The position numbers and the translations under genes were made by a program. Below, piece after piece: positions 38,969-52,055 of a stretch of DNA of 64,000 nucleotides. The stretch comes from Callorhinchus milii. Its lineage: Eukaryota. Where the stretch lies: the NCBI RefSeq assembly GCF_018977255.1, contig NW_024704746.1, forward strand, positions 32,736,001-32,800,000, written 5' to 3'. The notes under the pieces are model-generated. The model worked only from the letters and a program-made list of their open reading frames with translations. It ran no database searches and was not told where the DNA came from. Within the stretch, counting starts at the first letter, position 1; each line of letters begins with the position of its first letter.

Positions 38969-41655
38969 TTATAAATAAGCAAACATGTTTGGATAGCTTT
39001 GTTGTAGAATATACACCCCAACGAAAATAGCAACAAGGGATAGTGGCCTTAGTAGTAAAACTGTAATACAAAACTCGTTGCACAAGGAATCCGAATCAGC
39101 TGTAAAAAAAAAGTTTATGGTTAAAATACTAACCATTAACTTTCAAAATATTTAATTTCAGTTTTAATGATAAAAACATACTCACTCATCTCACGTGTCT
39201 TATTTCCTAGTAAAAGAAAGAACAAAATGTCAAAGTATATCTAGTGGTAGTCAAAATTAAGGTTCTTTTTTGAACACATAAATAACAAGTTCACTTTTAA
39301 GTCACAACTATGACTAAACAACATCAAAACAATGTACAATAAGAAAGATTTTGTGATTGTTAAACTTACGGCATAATTTGTTCTCACATCGATCCATGTA
39401 GCATTTACTGCATTCCTTTCCGGTTAAATAAGGTTGTTGTGGATAATTTCCACTGCAAGTAAAAAAAACAGCGCGTAGATATCAACAACATTGTAAGTCG
39501 ATTAAAATGAAAATAACAGGAACATTTTTCTAAATACTAAGAGAAACTTACGGTGGCCCATAATCACAAACGAAAATGGTTGAAAGTCTGGAATTGAAAT
39601 GAAAAATTCCAGAAGGGCAGGTGTGAACAGCACAGCCAACTTTATAACTTGTTGCCCAGACAAGCTTTAAATTGGAAAGAAAAAAACAGGATCAGATTCA
39701 GGAGAACAAATTCCTGGATAAATAAATGTTTGAACATTGTTCACTGCAAAAATTAAAAGCAAAAAATAAATTACCTGGGTATAATGGCCACAAATTCTGC
39801 TGCATTGGTTTGAACCATAATTATAATCTGCCACTTCATTATACCAACTTTTAGTGGCACTGGTGACATTTAAATTCGAGCCTGTTGTGACATAAATGTT
39901 TTCTCCTAAAGTCTTGAATACCGGATGGAGCTTTTGGGGCACTTTCAGGTCAGTGTTGTGATCAAAAATGCACTTCTTGCTCCATTCATGGGCCACTTCT
40001 GAAAGAATCCTGTCCCAACTCTAGGACGGAAGAAAGGGGGAAAAAATATTTTGTTAAGTGTTTCAAGACATTCATCTCCGTGAAACATCCTATTGTATAT
40101 AAGTCCGAGTTATTGACCAGCTTTATGGTTTCAGCACACGCACATTGTAGCAACATGGATGATGCAAATCAAGGATTTAGGATCAAGAACTTATTACTAC
40201 TTGCAATACACATCTAAGCTTATGAATCCATTGAAAATAGGGGTCTTGTGTATGAGGCAGCAGCCCGTCTTACACTAAGCTTTCATCATCATTATAAGAT
40301 AACCAGTAACAGATCAAGAATGGAGGAGTAAATTCTTCACACAGAGCATCAGTTTATTTAAGAGGAACCTTGACGCGTAGTAACTAGGAACCCAGTTGTT
40401 AGTCGATTGTTTTCCAGGGACAATAATCTTCAAAAAAAAATTATAATTTGGTCACTCAATCCACGGCTGTTTGTGGGACCCTGCTGTGTGCAATTGGCTG
40501 CCACATTTCACCCACAAAAATATACGGTGAATTCACTTTACAGTATATTCTGTGAAGTGTTTGAGATGCCTCAATGACATGATAAGGTGGTATATCAAAT
40601 GCAAGGATTATTATTATTATTACATAAGGCAGAAGTGAAAAGGGTTGGGGGTCAGTTAACTAGAAAGGACAGAAACTCCTGCAGTACTGTATGAACGCCA
40701 ACACGGACTATTTGGGCTGAGTGGCCTGTTTCTGTGCTGTTAAATTTACTGAAATTCTATGTAATTCTTTGACTGCAGGAATTATTTTTTCTTGCAATGG
40801 AGTTTTCCGAATTTCACCTCAGTCTGCTTTAAAGCACGACTGAGTCTGCAACAGGAGTGCTAAAGAGTATCATATTATCCAAATGGAATCTTAGGAATTT
40901 CCTCCAGTATAATTTTTTCTGTTTTGGGATTGATTGCAAAAGAGCCTTTAAAATTATATAAAAATCACATTTTAATATGTTATTGTTATTAAAGAGATTG
41001 TTGTACGTTCACTCTAACAGAAACATACATTTTCAACTTCCCTAATCTTTTTATTGCTACTCACGCCGCACAATGGAGGCAAAACATTTTTTCATGTTAC
41101 ATTTGAGTTTCTTCATTGTAAGCAAACATCCACAAATGTTCTACAATGAAACAGAAATAACCCGTGTTGCATGTTTGGAAGAATAGTTGGACAACTTTGC
41201 CCATTAGCCAAATTAATACAACCGCTATCTAAGGTGTTAGAATCATATTCGGTGTCAGCAATAACTACAAAGCACAGTTGAAAAACACAGGAAATGTTAA
41301 CTGCTTTCTGCAGTAGATAGCAATAATACTAATGACATTACACCTCTATGTTTCAAACAAGCTTATGGATTTCTAATAAAATACTAAAACATCATAAATT
41401 TATGTTTGTTTATTTTTAAAAATTCTCAGCATTAAAAATGCAATCAATACTAAGCAATAATGACCTTACCATGTACAGCATGTTGCTGGCTGAAGGGTTT
41501 ACTCTTGAACGGTAGAAATTATGAACATCAAGGCACTCCTTAATAAAAGCTTTATCATAAATGTCCACTGCTGACCCAATACATTGAAGGTGAAAAAATA
41601 TTTGAAGTAGAAAGTTGCAAAGCAGTCGTTTCGACCCTCTGGCACCCATAGTCAT
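38969..41655 (-). CDS. GLIPR1: GLIPR1 / glioma pathogenesis-related protein 1-like CAP protein B, ~259 aa, C-terminal TM
   Basis: Minus-strand exons 41655-41470 (FIKECLDVHNFYRSRVNPSASNMLYM), 40020-39775 (SWD..HP.F..LGENI..WYNE..CGHYTQ), 39664-39552 (LVWATSYKVGCAV..FVCDYGPP), 39452-39370, 39206-39186, and 39099-38969 (TM, then YPNMFAYL*). The symbol rests on similarity to the GLIPR1 C-terminus; one-to-one orthology is not proven. Confidence 0.9.
40375..40622 (+). mobile_element. SINE, 5'-truncated
   Basis: Body plus a GCAAGGA(TTA)n tail. Another 3' fragment lies at ~41865-42015. Confidence 0.75.
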
Positions 41656-43119: not shown

Positions 43120-43740
43120 GAGCTGAGGCTGGAGCGGCCGCGGGGTGTCGCTGTCGCGGGAGCGGTTGGGGGTGAGGGTGGCGATGGCGCTGTTGGGGCA
43201 GACGGTGCTGGCGGCCTGTGTGTTTGTGGGGGTGTTGGTGCTGATCCCCAGGATGGCTGTGGGGCCGCGCGGAGGAGGGACAGGGACGAGGCCGAGGACG
43301 GCGGGACCCGGGCCGAGGCCGCCAGGTACAGCCCCGGGGACAGAGAGCCGCCTCCGCCCTTCACCCCCGCGGAGGCCGAGGCTCTCCTGTCCACACTAGG
43401 CCGCTCGGCCCTGAACTAATAATAATAACAACAATAATAATAATAATAATCCTCGTGTGAGGTGTTAAGCGCCTTCTCACGTCGTGGAGACGTCCCCCAA
43501 AGCGCTTCACAGGAAAGGCCGTAAAGTTGGCGTGAAGGGGCCCCTCCATAAATACAAGTAGTTGCTGTCGTCGTCGTTGTCGTCGTCGCGACGCCTCGAA
43601 GCGCTTCGCGGGACACAACGCCGCGATGCGCTCTCGCCCGCGAGAGGGTCGCGGCCGCCCCCCCCTTCGAGTGGGGTAACGTCTCGTCAGCCGGAGTCTG
43701 ACCAGTGCTGTTCATGAGTACACTGGGGTTTAGCGGGTGA
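43120..43740 (+). promoter_or_regulatory. CpG island over RIC3-like exon 1, divergent from GLIPR1-B
   Basis: GC- and CpG-rich sequence spanning the first exon and the start of intron 1. Confidence 0.65.
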
Positions 43741-43775
43741 GGCCAGCGGTTACATCACCCCCACCCCCACCCCAC

Positions 43776-43807
<32 letters not shown>

Positions 43808-46800
43808 CCTCGCATTTGATATAGCGCTTTTCACGTCAGGAGGACGTCCCAAAGCGCTTCACAGAACACACTGTCAAGTGAATCGACTGTATATTTGTGG
43901 GCGAACGCGGCAGCCAATTGCGCACAACAATGTCCCACAAACAGTCGTAGATTGAAAATGACCAATTTATTATTGTTTTTGGTTTTGGAGGGATTATTAT
44001 TAGGCTCTGTGTGGAGTAAGGAAACTTGCTCAAAGTTTCGCCCTCTGCCTGGAATTGAACTCAGGTCTCTCACTTGCAAAGCGAGTGCTCTAACCACTGA
44101 GCTACAAATACTTCTCCCCAATACGCAGTCTGGGCTCGATGTCGCCCCTGGGTATTGGCAAAATGCGCTTACAAATTCTCCAGGATCAGGTTTTCCAGGG
44201 TGCGCTCTTCTCCAGAGAATGATCACTCCCATCACCAGACAAATGGAAACCCATACACATGTGGTGCGCACTTCAGTTTGGTTTGGGGGAACCCCCTCGA
44301 GCATTCGCGGCGGCATATCCCATCGAATGACCCCCAAAATTGTCTGGTAACCATTTGAGCTGCCCAGGGTGCGCAAAGCTGTGGGTCCGATTTCCATCAG
44401 ATAATTATTAGTTCCAATTTCCTTGTCTCAAAACATTATTATATTCGACTATATACAGAATGATACATTTCCAGCCTTTCCAGTACACCTTTGGTGCATT
44501 GCACATCCTACATTTCAGTGTATTCTGCTGTCTCAAATCAATATTTTATATCGGGCGTAAACAAAATGTTGTCAACTTTTTTTCTAACTTAAAAACTTTT
44601 AATCTAGATTTACTGAAGTAATGAGGAAAATCAGTAGTAATTGAATGTATGGATTTCTGTATAAGTACAGTATTTTCCAACCTGTCTCCTTAACCTATTG
44701 TTATCCTGACCCTTGTGAAATTGACTTAAACAGTTCCTTTTCATGTAAATAAACTTTGCAAAAGTTACAAACTCAATATGACATGTGCAAGTACTAATTG
44801 TGTTGCAAATCTCTCTTGTAAAGTTTTACTGCAGCTTCAGTTTGTTGAGGAAGTTGGAGCTAATTCAAGCATTTATGGAGCTATGTCACTTCATGTGATA
44901 TTTTAAAATATTAATACACAAACCTAGACATAAAAAATTTGCCTTTAAACATTTCCAAAACTAATTGCCCATTTTTGCATTACATTTAAATAGGAATTAA
45001 ATAATTGAGAATAATGTGGAGGACCGACATAATTCAAAGTACTGTACTGTAAATTCCAACTCTTTGTTTCTTTCTCTGATTTCTTGCTACACCTATTGTC
45101 TGTAATTGCTTTTCCTTACTTCTCCTTTTCTGTACCAAACTTGCATTTTGTTTTATTTTAGGCTTCATTTTCTCTGGCTAAAGCTCAAGTAACAGTCTTG
45201 GTGGTGAGTGAAAAGTTAAACAAGCTTGTGAAAAAAAAGTAACCATTGGTTGTAACTTTCAAAAAGCTTTTAACCATTGATAATAGGTCAATTCCTGATT
45301 GATTTTACATTTTAACAATTTCCAAAATGTCTTATTGCACACCATTTACCACTGGGAGGGGGGGTCAATGATGGCCATTTGCATTGTCGTAAAATATATA
45401 TGAATTACATGACTACTTCTTGTGCATCAAGTCAATTTCACTGGGACTATGATTATTTCCTCTGCTTTTATTTATGTATTTATACATATGCTTAACCTGC
45501 CACTCTGAATAATTCAGTACTGAGTCCTTTTCCCTTGGAGTGATGCGTTATCAGGACTTTACTGCATTAGCTTACACAGACTTGTGTTCAGTGATTGCTA
45601 GTTCTGGTTGCACCTTAGGTCAGTTCCTTTTCACATTGAAACAATTTATTTTTTAGGTTCTGGAAGAGGCCAGCCATTGAGCACACATTTTCAGAACAAC
45701 CCCTTAACATCACCTCATCATGGGATGCAGCAGATGAGAAGTGCAATTGAAAAGGAGATGAACAGAAACAAGATTAGAGGAGGAAACAAAGGATATGTTT
45801 TTCAGATGATGCCACTATATGCAATAGGAATAGGTGTTTATGTCATTTACAAACTTGTACAGGTAAGCAATATTACTTAGCATGCAGTTTACTTGCGGAT
45901 GACACCCAACTCTACCTTTCCTCCTCTACTCTCAACTCCACGACCACCGATGTCCTGACAGCTGCCTGTCTGACATCGAATCTTGGACGAGAGACAACTT
46001 TCTTCAGCTCAACGTGCGAAAAACCGAGGCCCTCCTGATTGGCTCACGTCAGCGCCTCCGCACCTCAGGCGCCGACACCATCAGCATCCAAGGCTGCACT
46101 CTCCACCTCTCAAAGCCAGTCAGGAACCTCGGCGTTTTGTTCGACCCTGAGCTGTCCTTTCTCCCTCACATCCGCACCACAACTGGCACCGCCTTCCATC
46201 ACCTCCGGAACATCGCCAGACTACGGCACTACCTCACCCCTCACGCTGCTGAAACCCTGGTCCACGCCTTTGTCACCTCAAGGCTGGACTATGGGAACTC
46301 TCTCCTCGCCGGCCTTCCCGCCACCTCCCTCCACAAGCTGCAGGTCATTCAGAACTCTGCAGCTCGTGTACTGTCCCGCACCAGGCTTCGGGACCACATC
46401 ACACCCACCCTCGCTCGCCTCCACTGGCTCCCCATCCCCCAGAGGATTGATTTCAAGATCCTCATCCTCACCTATAAGGCCATTCACGGCCTCGCTCCCT
46501 CCTACCTCTCTGACCTACTATCCCCCTACCTACCTGCCCGTACCCTCCGTTCCTCTGGCTCCAGTCTGCTCCACGTCCCCCGCCCCAATCGCCCTACCAT
46601 CGGTGGTCGGGCCTTCAGCCTCTCAGCCCCGAGGCTCTGGAACTCTATCCCCCAGTGCCTTCGCCGCTTCCTCCTTCAAGGCCGGTCTCAAAACCTTTCT
46701 CTTTGACCGAGCCTTCAGCTCCCCTCTCGACTCTCTTCCCCCTCCTCGCTCCCTCCCTTCCCTCCCCTCACCCTGACCATTTCCCCCCTCCTCGCTCCCT

Positions 46801-49800
46801 CCCTTCCCTCCCCTCACCCTGACCATTTCCCCCCCTGCTCGGGTCCTGACCCAACTGTACAGCGCCTTGGGACGTCCTCCTGACGTGAAAGGCGCTTTAT
46901 AAATGGAATCTTGTTGTTGTTGTTGTTGTACTTATCGTGGCACAATATTATATTATAATTGAAATGTTAAAAAATTTTAACAAAGTATTAACAATCACAT
47001 AAACGTAGTTGGGATCATGGCAAATACCTAAACGTGTTATGCTATATTAACATATTTACAGTTTTTAAATGTTTTGGGGCTATTTATTTTTCAATGTAAC
47101 CAAACTTAATTGGTCCATCATTCAACAGTGAAACGTGATGCATACTTGAGGGAAGAGTGGTGAAGGCAGGCTTGTGTGGAGTATAAATACGGATCGATTA
47201 GTTGGGTTGAGTGGCCTGTTTCTGTGATGTACAGTCAATTCACATTACAGTATATTCTGTGAAGCACTTTGAGATGTCTCAAAGACGTGATAAAGCGCTA
47301 TATCAAATGCAATATTTCTATTATTATTCTATTAGAATCAAAAATCATGTACCAGTGAAGTTACAAAAGTAGGAAGATGTTCCTAGAAAAATATTTTCAA
47401 TGAGACTTACCTCTGGAGAATTCAGTTATTAAACTATTGCACTTAAACCAAACAATCTATATTTTACATAGAGCATTAGCCCACAATTTAGCTTTACTGG
47501 AATAATTGTGTGACTTCCATAGAGAGGAGAAATAACATCCGGGTTAGTCTGTAGTTTTGATGGAGCTTTCTAAACTTCTCAGATTATTATTGATAAGGTA
47601 TATTCTGTATTTTCAGGTAAAATCCAAAGAAAATGAAAAACTATCCCAAAAGAAAAATAAAATTGATAAAAAGAAGATTGATACAGGTATTTCGTTTTTT
47701 TAAAAAAAGATTTTTTGTTTTATTTTCACATGGCGCTACTTTCAAAGTACACACAGGATTTCAAATGGAATGTACAATGCTTAATTAATTAGTGGAGTCC
47801 TGTAGCTCAGTGGTTAGAGCACTCGCTTTGCAAACGAGAGACCTGAGTTCAATTCCAGGCAGAGGTTGAAACCCTGGGCAAGTTTCCTTACTCCACACAG
47901 AGCCTAATAATAATCCCTCCAAAACCAAAACAATAATAAATTGGTCATTTTCAATCTATGACTATTTGTGGGACATTGCTGTGCGCAATTGGCTGCCGCG
48001 TTCACCCACAAATATACAGTCAAATTCACTTTACAGTGTGTTCTGTGAAGCGCTTTGGGACGACCTCCCGACATGAAAAGCGCTATACCAAATGCAAGGA
48101 TTATTATTATTAATAGATTGGGCTTTGTTTTGACCTAGAGTATCAGCTTTCTGAACTAGAGCTCCGTTTGGCCCAGACTGAGAAGATGCTAGATTCATTG
48201 GTGAAAGAATTGGATCCATTGGCCAGTTGGTAAGGAATTTATGCTGTGATATTGTAGTCTACTGAAGTATTTGTTTATGATGTGACATTTTATTTAGCAA
48301 ATATGCGAGGGTTTGTTCCCCTCATTCTTCCTACCTTCCGCAGGAATTCTTAGTTGAAAGAATGGTTTTGTCCACTTCTTAATATCTACATAATTCATTG
48401 AATGGCAGTCTTGACTGACCTGCTAGGAAGAGTGTTTTAAATAATACGAGATGAGACAACCCTTTGTAAATGCTGAGCCAATCGTAAGTCTAGAAGATGT
48501 GAAAAGCGCTATATCAAATGCAAGGATTATTATTATTATTACGTTACACAATCTATCTATGATGATCCACTGTCCATGCTTTCTTTTGTTTAACTTTGCT
48601 AAAATACTTATTAAATTGCATTTTTTTCACAAAATGCAACACTGTTATAAAATTGCTTTAATTTAAAAAAATGCTCCATACAAAAAAAATCAAAATACTA
48701 TTTGGAGTCCAGCTTGTTCAAAATTAAACATCGAAATGAAAGGTCTTTATTTGTAATAATAATAATAATCCTTGCATTTGATATTTGTACCTGTTTAAAA
48801 ACAATGTAATACCTGAAATACAGGAAAACTCTGATATTTAGCCCCTAGGATAAATAGTCAACCCCACATAACTAGTCACTTACTCAATATCCTGACTATT
48901 CGAGTACTTTGTACTTTTGAGATACTATTCTTTGGATAAGTAGTAATTTGAGCTATTTCTATTGGGGTGATGAGTTAGCGAGTTTCACTGTAGTTGTTCA
49001 ATTCTTAATAGATCTTGGATTGAGCACTAGCTAGCATGGGCATATAAAAATAGGAATCAAATGATTGTCGCATTGCATTTGACTTTTTCCAACCCCCTCT
49101 GTGATTTTTTTCTTTGTTTTCACTATAGTGTTGATGCTGTAGCCACTGAGCAGACAAGTGAGATTATGACACAACTTCAGCAAATCAGACACCTGATGAA
49201 AGAGAGAGAGACACCTACATTTGAAGGTAAAATGATTATTATGAGTGGAATGAAGTATTCAGTTGGAAAAACATTGAATTATATTAAAGCACATCTCCAA
49301 CTCGAGGTATGATTATGGTCAAGTGCCATTTTATAAATATTTATGTCAGACACAATGCACCATTACCAAAACAGGTTATGGTTTGACTTTAATTGTTTGT
49401 AATGCGTGAGCATATTTCTCCATGCAAACGAAGGGACACTTTGAAAATGTTTACTTATGTTTAAGTAAATTTTGGCAATATCTTTTAAGGAAGAAAAAGA
49501 CTTCCTTAAGTAAATTTTGGCAATATCTTTTAAGGAAGAAAAAGACTTCCAGAATTGCAGCAAAAAAAAGCTTCTTGTGGATTCTTGTAATCTATTTTAT
49601 ATTGAAATCAGCCTATTCATAAATAAAACATTGCCTTTCCTTTTTCAATTTCATCTTAACAGACTGTTGGTTTTTTTTTGTAAGGAGGTGAGATTTGTTC
49701 TCGGTAGTCAGATATTAGTGCTAGAAAATAGAACATTTAATAATTTGGGGAACTCCACATGAAATACATTCAGATCATGCTATTGTAGCATATCCTGTTT

Positions 49801-50945
49801 GTGAACGGAACACATGTGTTAAAGCTCACTACATTGCAGAGTGAGTTAGAGCTACAAGAGGATGAGGCAATGTCTGGTGAAGTGACTGCTACAAACAAAC
49901 AAATTACACTTGTATAGCGCCCTTCACGTCAGAAAGATGTTCCAGGGCCCTGGACAATCGGGTTTTGGATCCGAGTTGAATCAGAAGGGGAGGAAGGCAG
50001 ATGGGGTGGGAAAGTGGCCGAAGACACGATGGACAAGAAAGGTCTTCAGACGGGACTTGAAGGAGGCAAAAGGGGGTGAGACGGATAAATTCCATGTAAT
50101 ACTGAAACTTGTCATAATATCTCAACAAATGTGAATGAGATAAACTCAGGTTGAGAACTATGTTGGGGAAATGCCAGAAACCTTTGGACCATAGGTAGAT
50201 ACAGAGTAAGACTCTGTAATGTGTCTATTCACAGCCTCAAAAGAGAACCCTGTACACATGCTGCTGTAACCATAGTACAGTATCGTATGCTGGTATTTAT
50301 CGTAAGTGCCACAGACTGCTTATAGTCTAAATATGTGAAGTCTGTATATCCTGTTGGTGAAACAGGAACAAATGTGTTAAAGTTCACAACATTGAAAGGC
50401 AATGTACCTTTCACCTAGAATAGAGTTTTTGATGAATACTCTATTTGGTCGCTCTTGCCTCAGCTATGTAGATATGTACGAATCGCATTTCGATCCTTAA
50501 TTCTCGATCTGTGTCAAAATGCCAAGTCTGAGTTTCGAGCCTGTAATCAATCCAAAATGTTTTCACCAAATTAAGTTTTTTAGTTTTTCGTTTCATGGAT
50601 ATTTATATTAAGGATTTTGTCTGTACTTTACATTTAAGATTCTACCTCCACCCGGGAAGGACGGATTCATTTGTTTGAGAATGTACAGGAACGAGAGGGG
50701 ATAAAATGCAATGGATGAAAGATCAGGCCATTGCAGAGAGTGAGGAAGAGCTACAAGAGGATGAGACACTGACTATAGAAGTGACTCCTCCAACATTTCA
50801 CAGCAATACTGAAACTTGTCACAATAACTCAGCACATGTCAGTGAGATAAATTCAGAAGCCGTAACCTGTGTTGGGGATATGCCAGAAATCTTTGGACCA
50901 ATGAGATTGAGAAAACGCAACAAAATGAATGAGTATGGAAAATGA
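43184..50945 (+). CDS. RIC3-like protein (RIC-3 family, nicotinic/5-HT3 receptor chaperone-like), ~287 aa, 6 exons
   Basis: Exons 43184-43325 (hydrophobic N-terminus ending LIPRM, then a Pro/Gly-rich linker), 45657-45862 (TM FQMMPLYAIGIGVYVIYKLV, compare the RIC3 IPxYxxGIxxYxLY motif), 47617-47686, 48139-48229 (coiled coil EYQLSELELRLAQTEKMLDSL), 49129-49226, and 50689-50945 (acidic, ends LRKRN as in RIC3). The acceptor of the last exon is inferred from frame. Confidence 0.82.
43778..44107 (-). mobile_element. tRNA-derived SINE (short subfamily)
   Basis: Near-identical in reverse to 47793-48112, with an (AAT)n tail. Confidence 0.88.
45880..46928 (+). mobile_element. 5'-truncated L2-clade LINE (RT C-terminal part plus 3' UTR and (TTG)n tail)
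   Basis: ADDTQLYLS at ~45895. ORF 46014-46706 has KTEALLIG, VRNLGV.FD..LSF, SRLDYGNSLL.G, LHWLPI.QRI.FK and LWNS.P motifs. The element ends in (TTG)n and is flanked by a candidate TSD, TACTTA (45874-45879 and 46929-46934). Confidence 0.93.
47793..48112 (+). mobile_element. tRNA-derived SINE (short subfamily)
   Basis: Head GGAGTCCTGTAGCTCAGTGGTTAGAGCACTCGCTTTGCAAACGAGAGACCTGAGTTCAATTCC, L2-like tail and (TTA)n. Confidence 0.88.
48821..48990. mobile_element. Tigger/pogo-like MITE relic
   Basis: TA|CAGGAAAACTC ... GAGTTTCACTG|TA forms imperfect terminal inverted repeats with TA flanks. Confidence 0.5.
49461..49550. repeat. Perfect 45-bp tandem duplication
   Basis: TTAAGTAAATTTTGGCAATATCTTTTAAGGAAGAAAAAGACTTCC occurs twice in a row. 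Confidence 0.9.
49832..50191 (+). pseudogene. Decayed duplicate of the RIC3-like terminal exon
   Basis: Aligns by eye to 50729-50900 (GAGCTACAAGAGGATGAG, AATACTGAAACTTGTCA, TGTTGGGGA.ATGCCAGAAA.CTTTGGACCA), with indels and an L2 insertion. Confidence 0.8.
49895..50086 (-). mobile_element. L2 LINE 3' fragment inserted into a duplicated exon copy
   Basis: The reverse complement matches the L2 tail at 63080-63288. Confidence 0.7.
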
Positions 50946-52055
50946 GTTTTAAGACCCTAATGAATGCTCTCCTAATATTCATACTTTATGTACTTGTCTG
51001 CCTATTGTGCTTGGTGTGAGTCATTTTGAAGAAATGTCCCTATTGCATGTGATTGATGGATTAATAGAAACCATTACATAATTGCCTCAAATACACTCAG
51101 GTCGGCCACAATTATAATTGTAACTTACATCTGAATGAAATGATAGAATTACAGTGTAAATTCATATAGAAATGTATCCCTATTTATTCATTGTACAGTA
51201 TTAATGAGGTTGGTCTTTCTACATTAAAAACTGCCTTTGAGAACAACAAACATGTAGCTGTGTCATTTTGAGACATCTGAATTTAATTTCGAATACACAT
51301 GCATTTCATTTTCCATCTGTCAGATGTTTCATGTCTTGAAAACGACAGTTTGCAATGCAAACAAGACTTGTGTAATCCATGGGTATCATTCAAGGCTTTT
51401 CGATTAAGACATTTCTGAACCCTGCTGAGTGGATTCTTCCAGTATTTAATGGTATAAAATGTTGACTGTAGATGTTTAAGCAACCCATGCACTTACATAC
51501 AGCTGAGGCAATTGAGCCCTCTCCTCGTCGTCTTATCACAAAGGTAAGGTAATAATGAGATTGTTGTTAGCCACATAAAGCAATGCCGCAAAATTAACTC
51601 AAAAGCTGAAAGCATTTTATTGGAAGTACTATGCAATGAAAAACATATTCTGTGAAGCGCTTTTGAGACGTCTCGAAGATGTGATGAGGATTACTATTAT
51701 TATTATTGCAAGGATTGCTGTTGTTGTTATTTACGATTTCCAAAGTACGACTCGCGCAAAGAAGAAATGGGGCTCGGGTGCGTGTACGACTCGGGGGGTG
51801 GGGGGGGGGGATTGCAAGAGAGATAAAAGCCCAGACCGGGGGCTGAGTTTCACTGTGGACGTGGTGTGGACACTGGACAGACAGGACAGGACCAGACAGG
51901 ACAGCTGTGGGTGGTGTGTCTACAGGTGGTGGGTCAGCTGCACGATACTGCGCGTGCGCGGCGGCGGCGGCGGCGGCCGGTTGCCAGAGCAACGCGGTGC
52001 GTGAGGCCTACGGAAGGATAAAGCCTCACGTTAATGGCCCCGCCGGTGCTCGCGA

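What the first reader, a model, noticed from the sequence alone, without database searches (positions are those of the whole stretch)
43184..50945. RIC3-like gene between GLIPR1 and CAPS2, a probable second RIC-3 family chaperone
Seen: an N-terminal hydrophobic segment, Pro/Gly linker, TM with MPLYAIGIGVYVIYKL, coiled coil and an acidic tail ending LRKRN, which is the RIC-3 layout. Known: mammalian RIC3 lies next to TUB/LMO1 on human 11p15, and I recall no such gene between human GLIPR1L1 and CAPS2. Inference: an ancient paralogue (possibly an ohnologue) lost in mammals, which could chaperone a different set of Cys-loop receptors.
Basis: partly seen in the sequence, partly recalled or inferred. 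Interest (0 to 1): 0.7.

Follow-up and report, generated by a model that had tools for sequence, protein, structure and literature searches.

The report
CCDC107, RIC3's overlooked vertebrate twin
This elephant shark gene is a spliced second member of the RIC-3 family, already labelled CCDC107 in databases; it likely arose by an early vertebrate genome doubling, likely survives in mammals at a new address rather than being lost, and is predicted, untested, to help membrane proteins assemble as RIC-3 does for nicotinic receptors.

Summary
The gene is real and is a RIC-3 family member (Pfam RIC3, E 1e-30). The organism is Callorhinchus milii, and RefSeq already names the gene CCDC107. A separate canonical RIC3 lies tail-to-tail with a Tub gene on another contig. 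Both genes have six exons with the same intron phases, and their contigs share 4 of 4 paralogue families tested, so an ohnologue pair is likely. 'Lost in mammals' is probably wrong: three trees nest platypus, marsupial and human CCDC107 inside this gene's clade (support 95-99), although an AU test does not exclude a separate paralogue (p=0.13). The mammalian gene sits beside CA9, is fast-evolving and has lost the transmembrane motif. Two corrections to the model: the assembly lacks one base in exon 6 (4 of 4 RNA contig sets carry it), and 3 of 4 carry a 42-base insert, inferred to be a stop-bearing cassette exon. Function is untested; an ER assembly-chaperone role is inferred from anatomy only. 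No paper linking CCDC107 to RIC-3 was found, and the scan's notes held no earlier finding on it.

The parts
43184..43325 (+). Exon 1: start codon, first hydrophobic segment (signal peptide or TM1, residues 3-21), Gly/Pro linker
   Evidence: covered by contigs of X1, X2, X7
45162..45203 (+). Inferred 42-base cassette exon with an in-frame TAA; would end the long frame after 53 codons
   Evidence: 42 letters between exons 1 and 2 in contigs of X1, X2, X7; bin depth fits (14.5 vs 14.55, 7.88 vs 7.89, 37.8 vs 33.4); best of 6 AG/42/GT candidates and the only one in that bin. Its letters were not printed by the tool.
45657..45862 (+). Exon 2 (206 bases): rest of loop, Met71 at 45725 (start of the 234-aa database isoform), TM2 with MPLYAIG
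   Evidence: Pfam RIC3 E 1.1e-14; spliced in 4 of 4 runs
47617..47686 (+). Exon 3: Lys-rich linker after TM2
48139..48229 (+). Exon 4: first coiled coil (LAQTE) and LDPL hinge
   Evidence: Pfam RIC3 E 2.5e-4; hit by the mammalian CCDC107 profile at E 6.8e-7
49129..49226 (+). Exon 5: second coiled coil
50639..50945 (+). Exon 6, coding part: acidic low-confidence tail ending in a basic LRKRN motif; the assembly lacks one base at 50702-50706
50946..51250 (+). 3' UTR; ATTAAA at 51223; contigs of four runs end at 51235-51250

Best explanation
This six-exon spliced gene encodes a RIC-3 family protein that is likely the shark orthologue of human CCDC107 and likely a genome-duplication twin of RIC3, and it is predicted to work as an ER membrane assembly chaperone. 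Shown: RIC3 domain, RIC-3 layout, splicing, a separate canonical RIC3 with identical intron phases, paralogous chromosomes. Inferred history (about 0.8): the gene stayed beside GLIPR1 in non-mammals and moved next to CA9 in the mammalian line, where it evolved fast. Inferred mechanism (about 0.5): the first hydrophobic segment targets it to the ER, TM2 anchors it with the Lys-rich linker, coiled coils and acidic tail in the cytosol; TM2 would hold unassembled membrane-protein subunits and the coiled coil would bring them together, as proposed for RIC-3. Clients likely differ from RIC3's, because TM2 has another motif and selection is strongest on the coiled coil. Cys-loop subunits are the single best guess for the non-mammalian protein (about 0.35). 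The cassette exon would switch output to a form without the first segment, or to decay.
For: Family: PF15361 E 9.8e-31. Two loci in the genome search, C5 (window) and C17. C17 gene lies about 10 kb from a Tub gene, tail to tail. Both have intron phases 1,0,1,2,1 and a 206-base exon 2; core identity 31% over 120 columns. Tub, NAP, myogenic and aromatic-hydroxylase families each occur on both C5 and C17, a NAP gene about 110 kb from the window gene. Orthology: window clade plus mammalian CCDC107 99/99, mammals with bony vertebrates 97/95; 99/98 and 95/93 with 67 rows; 100/100 and 99/97 without outgroup worms and eutherians. LDPL hinge in 29 of 29 window-clade, 10 of 10 mammalian, 0 of 18 RIC3 rows. 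No family exon in 200 kb around the shark CA-tropomyosin block where mammals keep CCDC107, while the same profiles find the window exons. A frog gene model fuses the orthologue with a GLIPR1 exon. Anatomy matches the RIC-3 description in PMC9318448.
Against: AU test does not reject the non-mammalian genes as one clade without mammals (p=0.127); only 121 columns, long mammalian branches, biased composition in marsupial rows. No mammalian, bird or frog genome could be read, so relocation rests on labels, one paper and contig sizes. No functional data. The RIC3 TM2 motif (PIYGFG type, 18 of 18 RIC3 rows) is in 0 of 29 window-clade and 0 of 10 mammalian rows. Marsupial CCDC107 (2 of 2) has no Pfam RIC3 hit and eutherian and platypus rows (6 of 6) fall below the cut-off. 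A 17,255-clone screen for alpha7 enhancers with NACHO names no CCDC gene in its main text (PMC6588605; library content unknown). In 3 of 4 runs the assembled contig carries the stop-bearing insert, so the 304-aa form may not be the main product.
Confidence: 0.6

Rival explanations
1. One reading: the window gene is a RIC3 ohnologue lost in mammals, and mammalian CCDC107 is a third, separate paralogue that non-mammals lost.
For: AU p=0.127 for the non-mammalian clade without mammals. Mammalian CCDC107 has other neighbours (Rmrp, Sit1, Car9 in mouse, PMC3198473; seal and otter models labelled CA9 isoforms) and only 26% TM2 identity to the window protein.
Against: 0 of 200 bootstrap trees hold the non-mammalian genes together. 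It needs losses in every non-mammalian line. No named row shows both types in one species (no mammal among the named rows, only mammals among the named rows of the 120 listed). No family exon near the shark CA-tropomyosin block. Platypus is intermediate in the coiled coil.
Confidence: 0.12
2. Same history, different job: the protein is an ER-anchored coiled-coil adaptor or tether with a conserved non-receptor partner and has given up receptor chaperoning.
For: Coiled-coil region is more conserved within this clade (74% mean identity) than within RIC3 (56%), TM2 less (73% vs 85%) (the two sets were sampled differently). Mammals keep the coiled coil and lose the TM2 motif. Mouse Ccdc107 is expressed in fibroblasts. 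A BioGRID table lists a CCDC107-TRPM7 affinity capture (PMC12699267). No CCDC hit named in the alpha7 screen.
Against: Both hydrophobic segments, the loop and the PxYxxG core are kept for over 400 million years (age recalled) in non-mammals. Five worm-like RIC-3 rows score no better against RIC3 than against this clade, so this TM2 is no further from them than RIC3's is.
Confidence: 0.3
3. A simply translocated canonical RIC3.
For: Same domain and exon layout.
Against: A canonical Tub-linked RIC3 exists on C17; AU p=3e-5.
Confidence: 0.01
4. A decaying pseudogene (frameshift in exon 6, stop-bearing insert).
For: Frameshift in the assembly; insert in 3 of 4 runs.
Against: 4 of 4 runs have the base that keeps the frame, in two forms that both read Lys; database proteins run through; intact orthologues at 44-57% identity in sharks and rays.
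Confidence: 0.03

Closest known systems
CCDC107 (human, RefSeq NP_001182129.1; C. milii XP_007893521)
   Same: Database name of this very gene; shared LAQTE and LDPL coiled-coil signature and basic LRRR-type tail motif; nested in one clade.
   Different: Mammalian protein lacks the PLYAIG motif, scores below the Pfam cut-off, and lies beside RMRP and CA9, not GLIPR1 and CAPS2. No function found in print.
RIC-3 / RIC3 (Pfam PF15361), ER chaperone of nicotinic and 5-HT3 receptors
   Same: Two hydrophobic segments, flexible loop, cytosolic coiled coils, acidic tail; six exons with the same phases.
   Different: 31% core identity to shark RIC3; TM2 PLYAIG for PIYGFG; LDPL-C hinge absent from RIC3; lacks the conserved acidic stretch of RIC3's exon 5-6 junction; no receptor data.
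Second RIC-3 family gene of lampreys (XP_078719940.1, unnamed LOC)
   Same: Has an LxPL hinge; falls on the CCDC107 side (91/85) when worms are left out.
   Different: Keeps the RIC3-type TM2; falls on the RIC3 side (95/63) in the 67-row tree. Position unresolved.

Membership tests
RIC-3 family (PF15361) | RIC3 profile above the curated cut-off | tested here: met
   107.6 bits vs 28.9
RIC-3 family (PF15361) | Signal/TM1, loop, TM2, coiled coil, variable disordered tail | tested here: met
   Hydropathy, heptads, model pLDDT; feature list from PMC9318448
RIC-3 family (PF15361) | Shared exon-intron structure with RIC3 | tested here: met
   Phases 1,0,1,2,1 in both
RIC-3 family (PF15361) | ER residence | not testable with these tools
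   Basic C-terminal motif only; its reading as a retention signal is recalled
RIC-3 family (PF15361) | Binds Cys-loop subunits and changes receptor assembly | not testable with these tools
   No experiment available
RIC3 orthologue | Groups with canonical RIC3 | tested here: not met
   AU p=3e-5
RIC3 orthologue | Adjacent to TUB | tested here: not met
   The C17 gene is; nearest Tub genes on C5 are 16 and 20 Mb away
RIC3 orthologue | PIYGFG-type TM2 | tested here: not met
   0 of 29 window-clade rows, 18 of 18 RIC3 rows (motif chosen after seeing the alignment)
CCDC107 orthogroup | One clade with mammalian CCDC107, in species order | tested here: met
   mammals with sauropsids not rejected (p=0.46), separate paralogue also not rejected (p=0.13)
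CCDC107 orthogroup | Reciprocal profile preference and LAQTE/LDPL signature | tested here: met
   10 of 10 mammalian rows
CCDC107 orthogroup | Conserved neighbours with mammals (RMRP, CA9) | tested here: not met
   No family exon near shark RMRP (150 kb) or CA-tropomyosin (200 kb); read as relocation
CCDC107 orthogroup | Intron positions shared with mammalian CCDC107 | not testable with these tools
   No mammalian genome held
Ohnologue pair with RIC3 | On paralogous chromosomes | tested here: met
   4 of 4 chosen families on both C5 and C17; families picked from recall of human 11p15/12q paralogy; 0 of 3 other families searched
Ohnologue pair with RIC3 | Duplication dated to the vertebrate stem | tested here: inconclusive
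   Older than jawed vertebrates; lamprey second gene unresolved; no invertebrate chordate outgroup obtained

The most novel reading that the evidence does not exclude
All jawed vertebrates, humans included, carry a second RIC-3-type chaperone, CCDC107, born in a vertebrate genome doubling. It assembles a different or overlapping set of Cys-loop receptors, is switched by a stop-bearing cassette exon in shark, and could be the redundancy behind the mild effect reported for RIC-3 knockout on alpha7.
Probability: 0.22. Interest if true: 0.72.

Novelty: new member of a known kind. Interest (0 to 1): 0.4.

Why it matters
CCDC107 is a human gene with no function in the papers found, and the searches found no paper that ties it to RIC-3. 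The shark, fish and bird versions make the kinship plain and give the best proteins to test, since the human one is heavily diverged. A review notes that RIC-3 knockout only slightly lowers alpha7 toxin binding (preliminary; PMC9318448), so a hidden paralogue is a cheap hypothesis to test. The gene and its domain are already in databases, which limits the surprise.

Tried and rejected
PDB sequence search: nothing meaningful (3 hits, E 0.4-0.6). Structure model: pLDDT 63.5, pTM 0.26, long helices only; no fold search was run on it. Complex prediction (homodimer) was not available: no verdict. Genome search with platypus CCDC107 missed even the window gene, so it cannot exclude a diverged third copy; the Pfam model is also weak on mammal-type sequences, so 'two loci' is a lower bound. 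RMRP as a synteny anchor failed: in shark it lies beside ING-type and NWD-type genes. No RhoGEF (ARHGEF39) exon was seen among 97 of 107 filtered ORFs scanned upstream of the CA gene, so the exact empty site is not pinned. No run is on record as RNA; tissue is unknown. Whether DNA runs carry the extra exon-6 base stays open. Papers: CCDC107+RIC3 gave 1 listing (no occurrence in the 300,000 characters held), CCDC107+RIC-3 0, RIC-3+paralog+zebrafish+chaperone 0, 'zgc 92489' 0, RIC3+whole genome duplication 2 listings not read, CCDC107 alone 78 papers, 30 listed, none functional by title or abstract start. Two primary RIC-3 papers were not held. The screen's supplements were not read and could say whether CCDC107 was in the library. 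ESM Atlas named CCDC107 first (0.93), RIC-3 third (0.83): consistent, not independent. The scan's notes returned nothing relevant.
Full report
Observation. The window holds a six-exon gene at 43184-50945 (+), all introns GT..AG. Exon 2 hits Pfam RIC3 at E 1.1e-14 and exon 4 at 2.5e-4; the full 304-aa protein scores 107.6 bits against a cut-off of 28.9. Hydropathy peaks lie at residues 3-21 and 93-117, heptads at 139-165 and 170-196, and the tail is acidic and low-confidence in the model. Upstream are KRR1 and two minus-strand CAP-domain genes, downstream calcyphosin-2-like exons (300 of 317 filtered ORFs scanned). Exact look-up names the protein's cluster as Callorhinchus milii 'coiled-coil domain-containing protein 107', with a UniRef alias 'RIC3 N-terminal domain-containing protein'.

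Transcript. Contigs from 4 of 4 laid runs (2 studies; RNA is the tool's guess, but they skip introns 2-5 at GT..AG) cover the gene. All four have one more base at 50702-50705 than the window, one run an A and three a G, both reading Lys. The window as assembled translates exactly to the 228-aa RefSeq model P0002, while other records run through to 304 and 234 aa. The frameshift is therefore most likely an assembly error; I could not check DNA runs. In 3 runs the contig has 42 letters between exons 1 and 2; the fourth starts at exon 2. Depth in the bin 44949-45255 fits a 43-letter piece, and the only AG/42/GT candidate there is 45162-45203, with strong splice sites and an in-frame TAA. This is inferred by arithmetic, not read. 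It would explain the 234-aa records that start at Met71. Two amphibian RefSeq short isoforms start at a similar place. The direct exon 1-2 junction rests on database models and on conservation of exon 1.

A second, canonical RIC3. The family search of the genome gave two loci, C5 (window) and C17 (7 candidates scored). The C17 gene has the PIYGFG transmembrane motif and ends about 10 kb from a Tub gene, tail to tail. Its six exons have the same phases as the window gene, 1,0,1,2,1, and exon 2 is 206 bases in both. Core identity is 31%. Forcing the window protein into the RIC3 clade is rejected (p=3e-5). Four families that I picked from recall of human 11p15/12q paralogy (Tub, NAP, myogenic, aromatic hydroxylase) each have members on both C5 and C17; three families searched for another purpose have none on either. 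This supports an ohnologue pair at chromosome scale. Lampreys have two family genes; the second falls with CCDC107 in one tree and with RIC3 in another, so the round of duplication is open.

Not lost in mammals. Close relatives occur in sharks, rays, ray-finned fish, lungfish, coelacanth, amphibians, turtles, crocodile and birds, with no mammal among the named rows (96 hits). A profile of 20 of them, run over 1.84 billion representatives (201 hits, 150 listed), also retrieved platypus, marsupial and eutherian CCDC107 (named); a further search gave the human protein. On 121 core columns, mammalian CCDC107 groups with the window clade and, within it, with bony vertebrates against cartilaginous fish: 99/99 and 97/95 (31 rows), 99/98 and 95/93 (67 rows), 100/100 and 99/97 (26 rows). 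Rows were chosen by me from full-length hits; the five outgroup rows are called nematode, and most RIC3 rows RIC3, by resemblance, not by a looked-up name; P0185's organism was not shown. All 10 mammalian rows prefer the window-clade profile (44-56 vs 9-18 bits) and carry its LDPL hinge, absent from 18 of 18 RIC3 rows. Against this, the AU test does not reject mammals as a separate paralogue (p=0.127), though it fits mammals-with-sauropsids much better (p=0.46).

Relocation. Mouse Ccdc107 lies by Rmrp, Sit1 and Car9 (PMC3198473, passages read), and two carnivore models are labelled CA9 isoforms. The shark has a carbonic anhydrase, tropomyosin and talin block on C1 (read as CA9-TPM2-TLN1 from recall of the human order), and five profiles find no family exon in 200 kb there while finding the window exons. 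A frog model fuses the orthologue to a GLIPR1 exon, and bird orthologues lie on 161-207 Mb sequences, too long for the Z chromosome by recall. I could not read any of those genomes, so the move is inferred.

Mechanism. RIC-3 is described as an ER protein with a first TM that is cleaved in some species, a lumenal loop, a second TM, coiled coils and a variable tail; TM2 is its most conserved part, and coiled-coil dimerisation is proposed to pull subunits together (PMC9318448, section 7 and passages; PMC4850696, passages). The window protein has each element, with 9 Lys/Arg in the 27 residues after TM2, which predicts a cytosolic coiled coil. It differs where it may matter: TM2 reads PLYAIG, and conservation peaks in the coiled coil (74% within clade vs 56% in RIC3). 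I commit to an ER assembly chaperone with shifted clients (about 0.5), Cys-loop subunits being the best single guess (about 0.35), and a coiled-coil adaptor as main rival. Weak evidence against alpha7: no CCDC gene is named in the main text of a 17,255-clone screen (PMC6588605, passages). A database table lists one CCDC107-TRPM7 capture (PMC12699267, one passage).

Novelty and verdict. The gene, its name and its domain are in databases. Ten literature searches found no paper that treats CCDC107 as a RIC-3 relative; subscription journals are mostly outside the library. The corrected reading is modestly more useful, because it gives an orphan human gene a testable ancestry. Interest 0.4.

Noticed in passing
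window:50702-50706: One base missing in an A run; the current 228-aa RefSeq model inherits the truncation. RNA contigs show two forms of the missing base, both Lys.
   Followed up: yes
window:45162-45203: Inferred stop-bearing cassette exon, in contigs of 3 of 4 runs.
   Followed up: partly
window:49821-49894 and 50098-50191: Degenerate partial copies of exon 6 (79% and 82% identical) in intron 5, split by a repeat; also an exact 45-base tandem duplication at 49461-49550.
   Followed up: partly
window:45903-46703: 267-aa ORF in intron 2 that looks like the end of a LINE reverse transcriptase (recalled resemblance; very high repeat depth).
   Followed up: no
window:33404-33661 and 39772-40020 (-): Two tandem GLIPR1-like CAP genes, 37% identical in the main exon.
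   Followed up: partly
window:8295-17299 (+): Gene with fn3, calcium-binding EGF and ZP domains (UMODL1-like by recall) just upstream of KRR1.
   Followed up: no
G000:C1:58225301-58225595 (L025): Shark RNase MRP RNA gene lies about 2 kb from an ING-type PHD gene and near an NWD-type gene, about 70 Mb from the CA-tropomyosin block, unlike mouse.
   Followed up: partly
P0181, P0220 (lamprey), P0185: Lampreys have two RIC-3 family genes; the second mixes a RIC3-type TM2 with a CCDC107-type hinge.
   Followed up: partly
G000:C5:48.68 Mb and 52.35 Mb; C5:31.44-31.46 Mb; C533:23-24 kb: Two Tub-family genes on C5, two adjacent aromatic amino acid hydroxylase genes, and a third talin locus on a small contig.
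   Followed up: no
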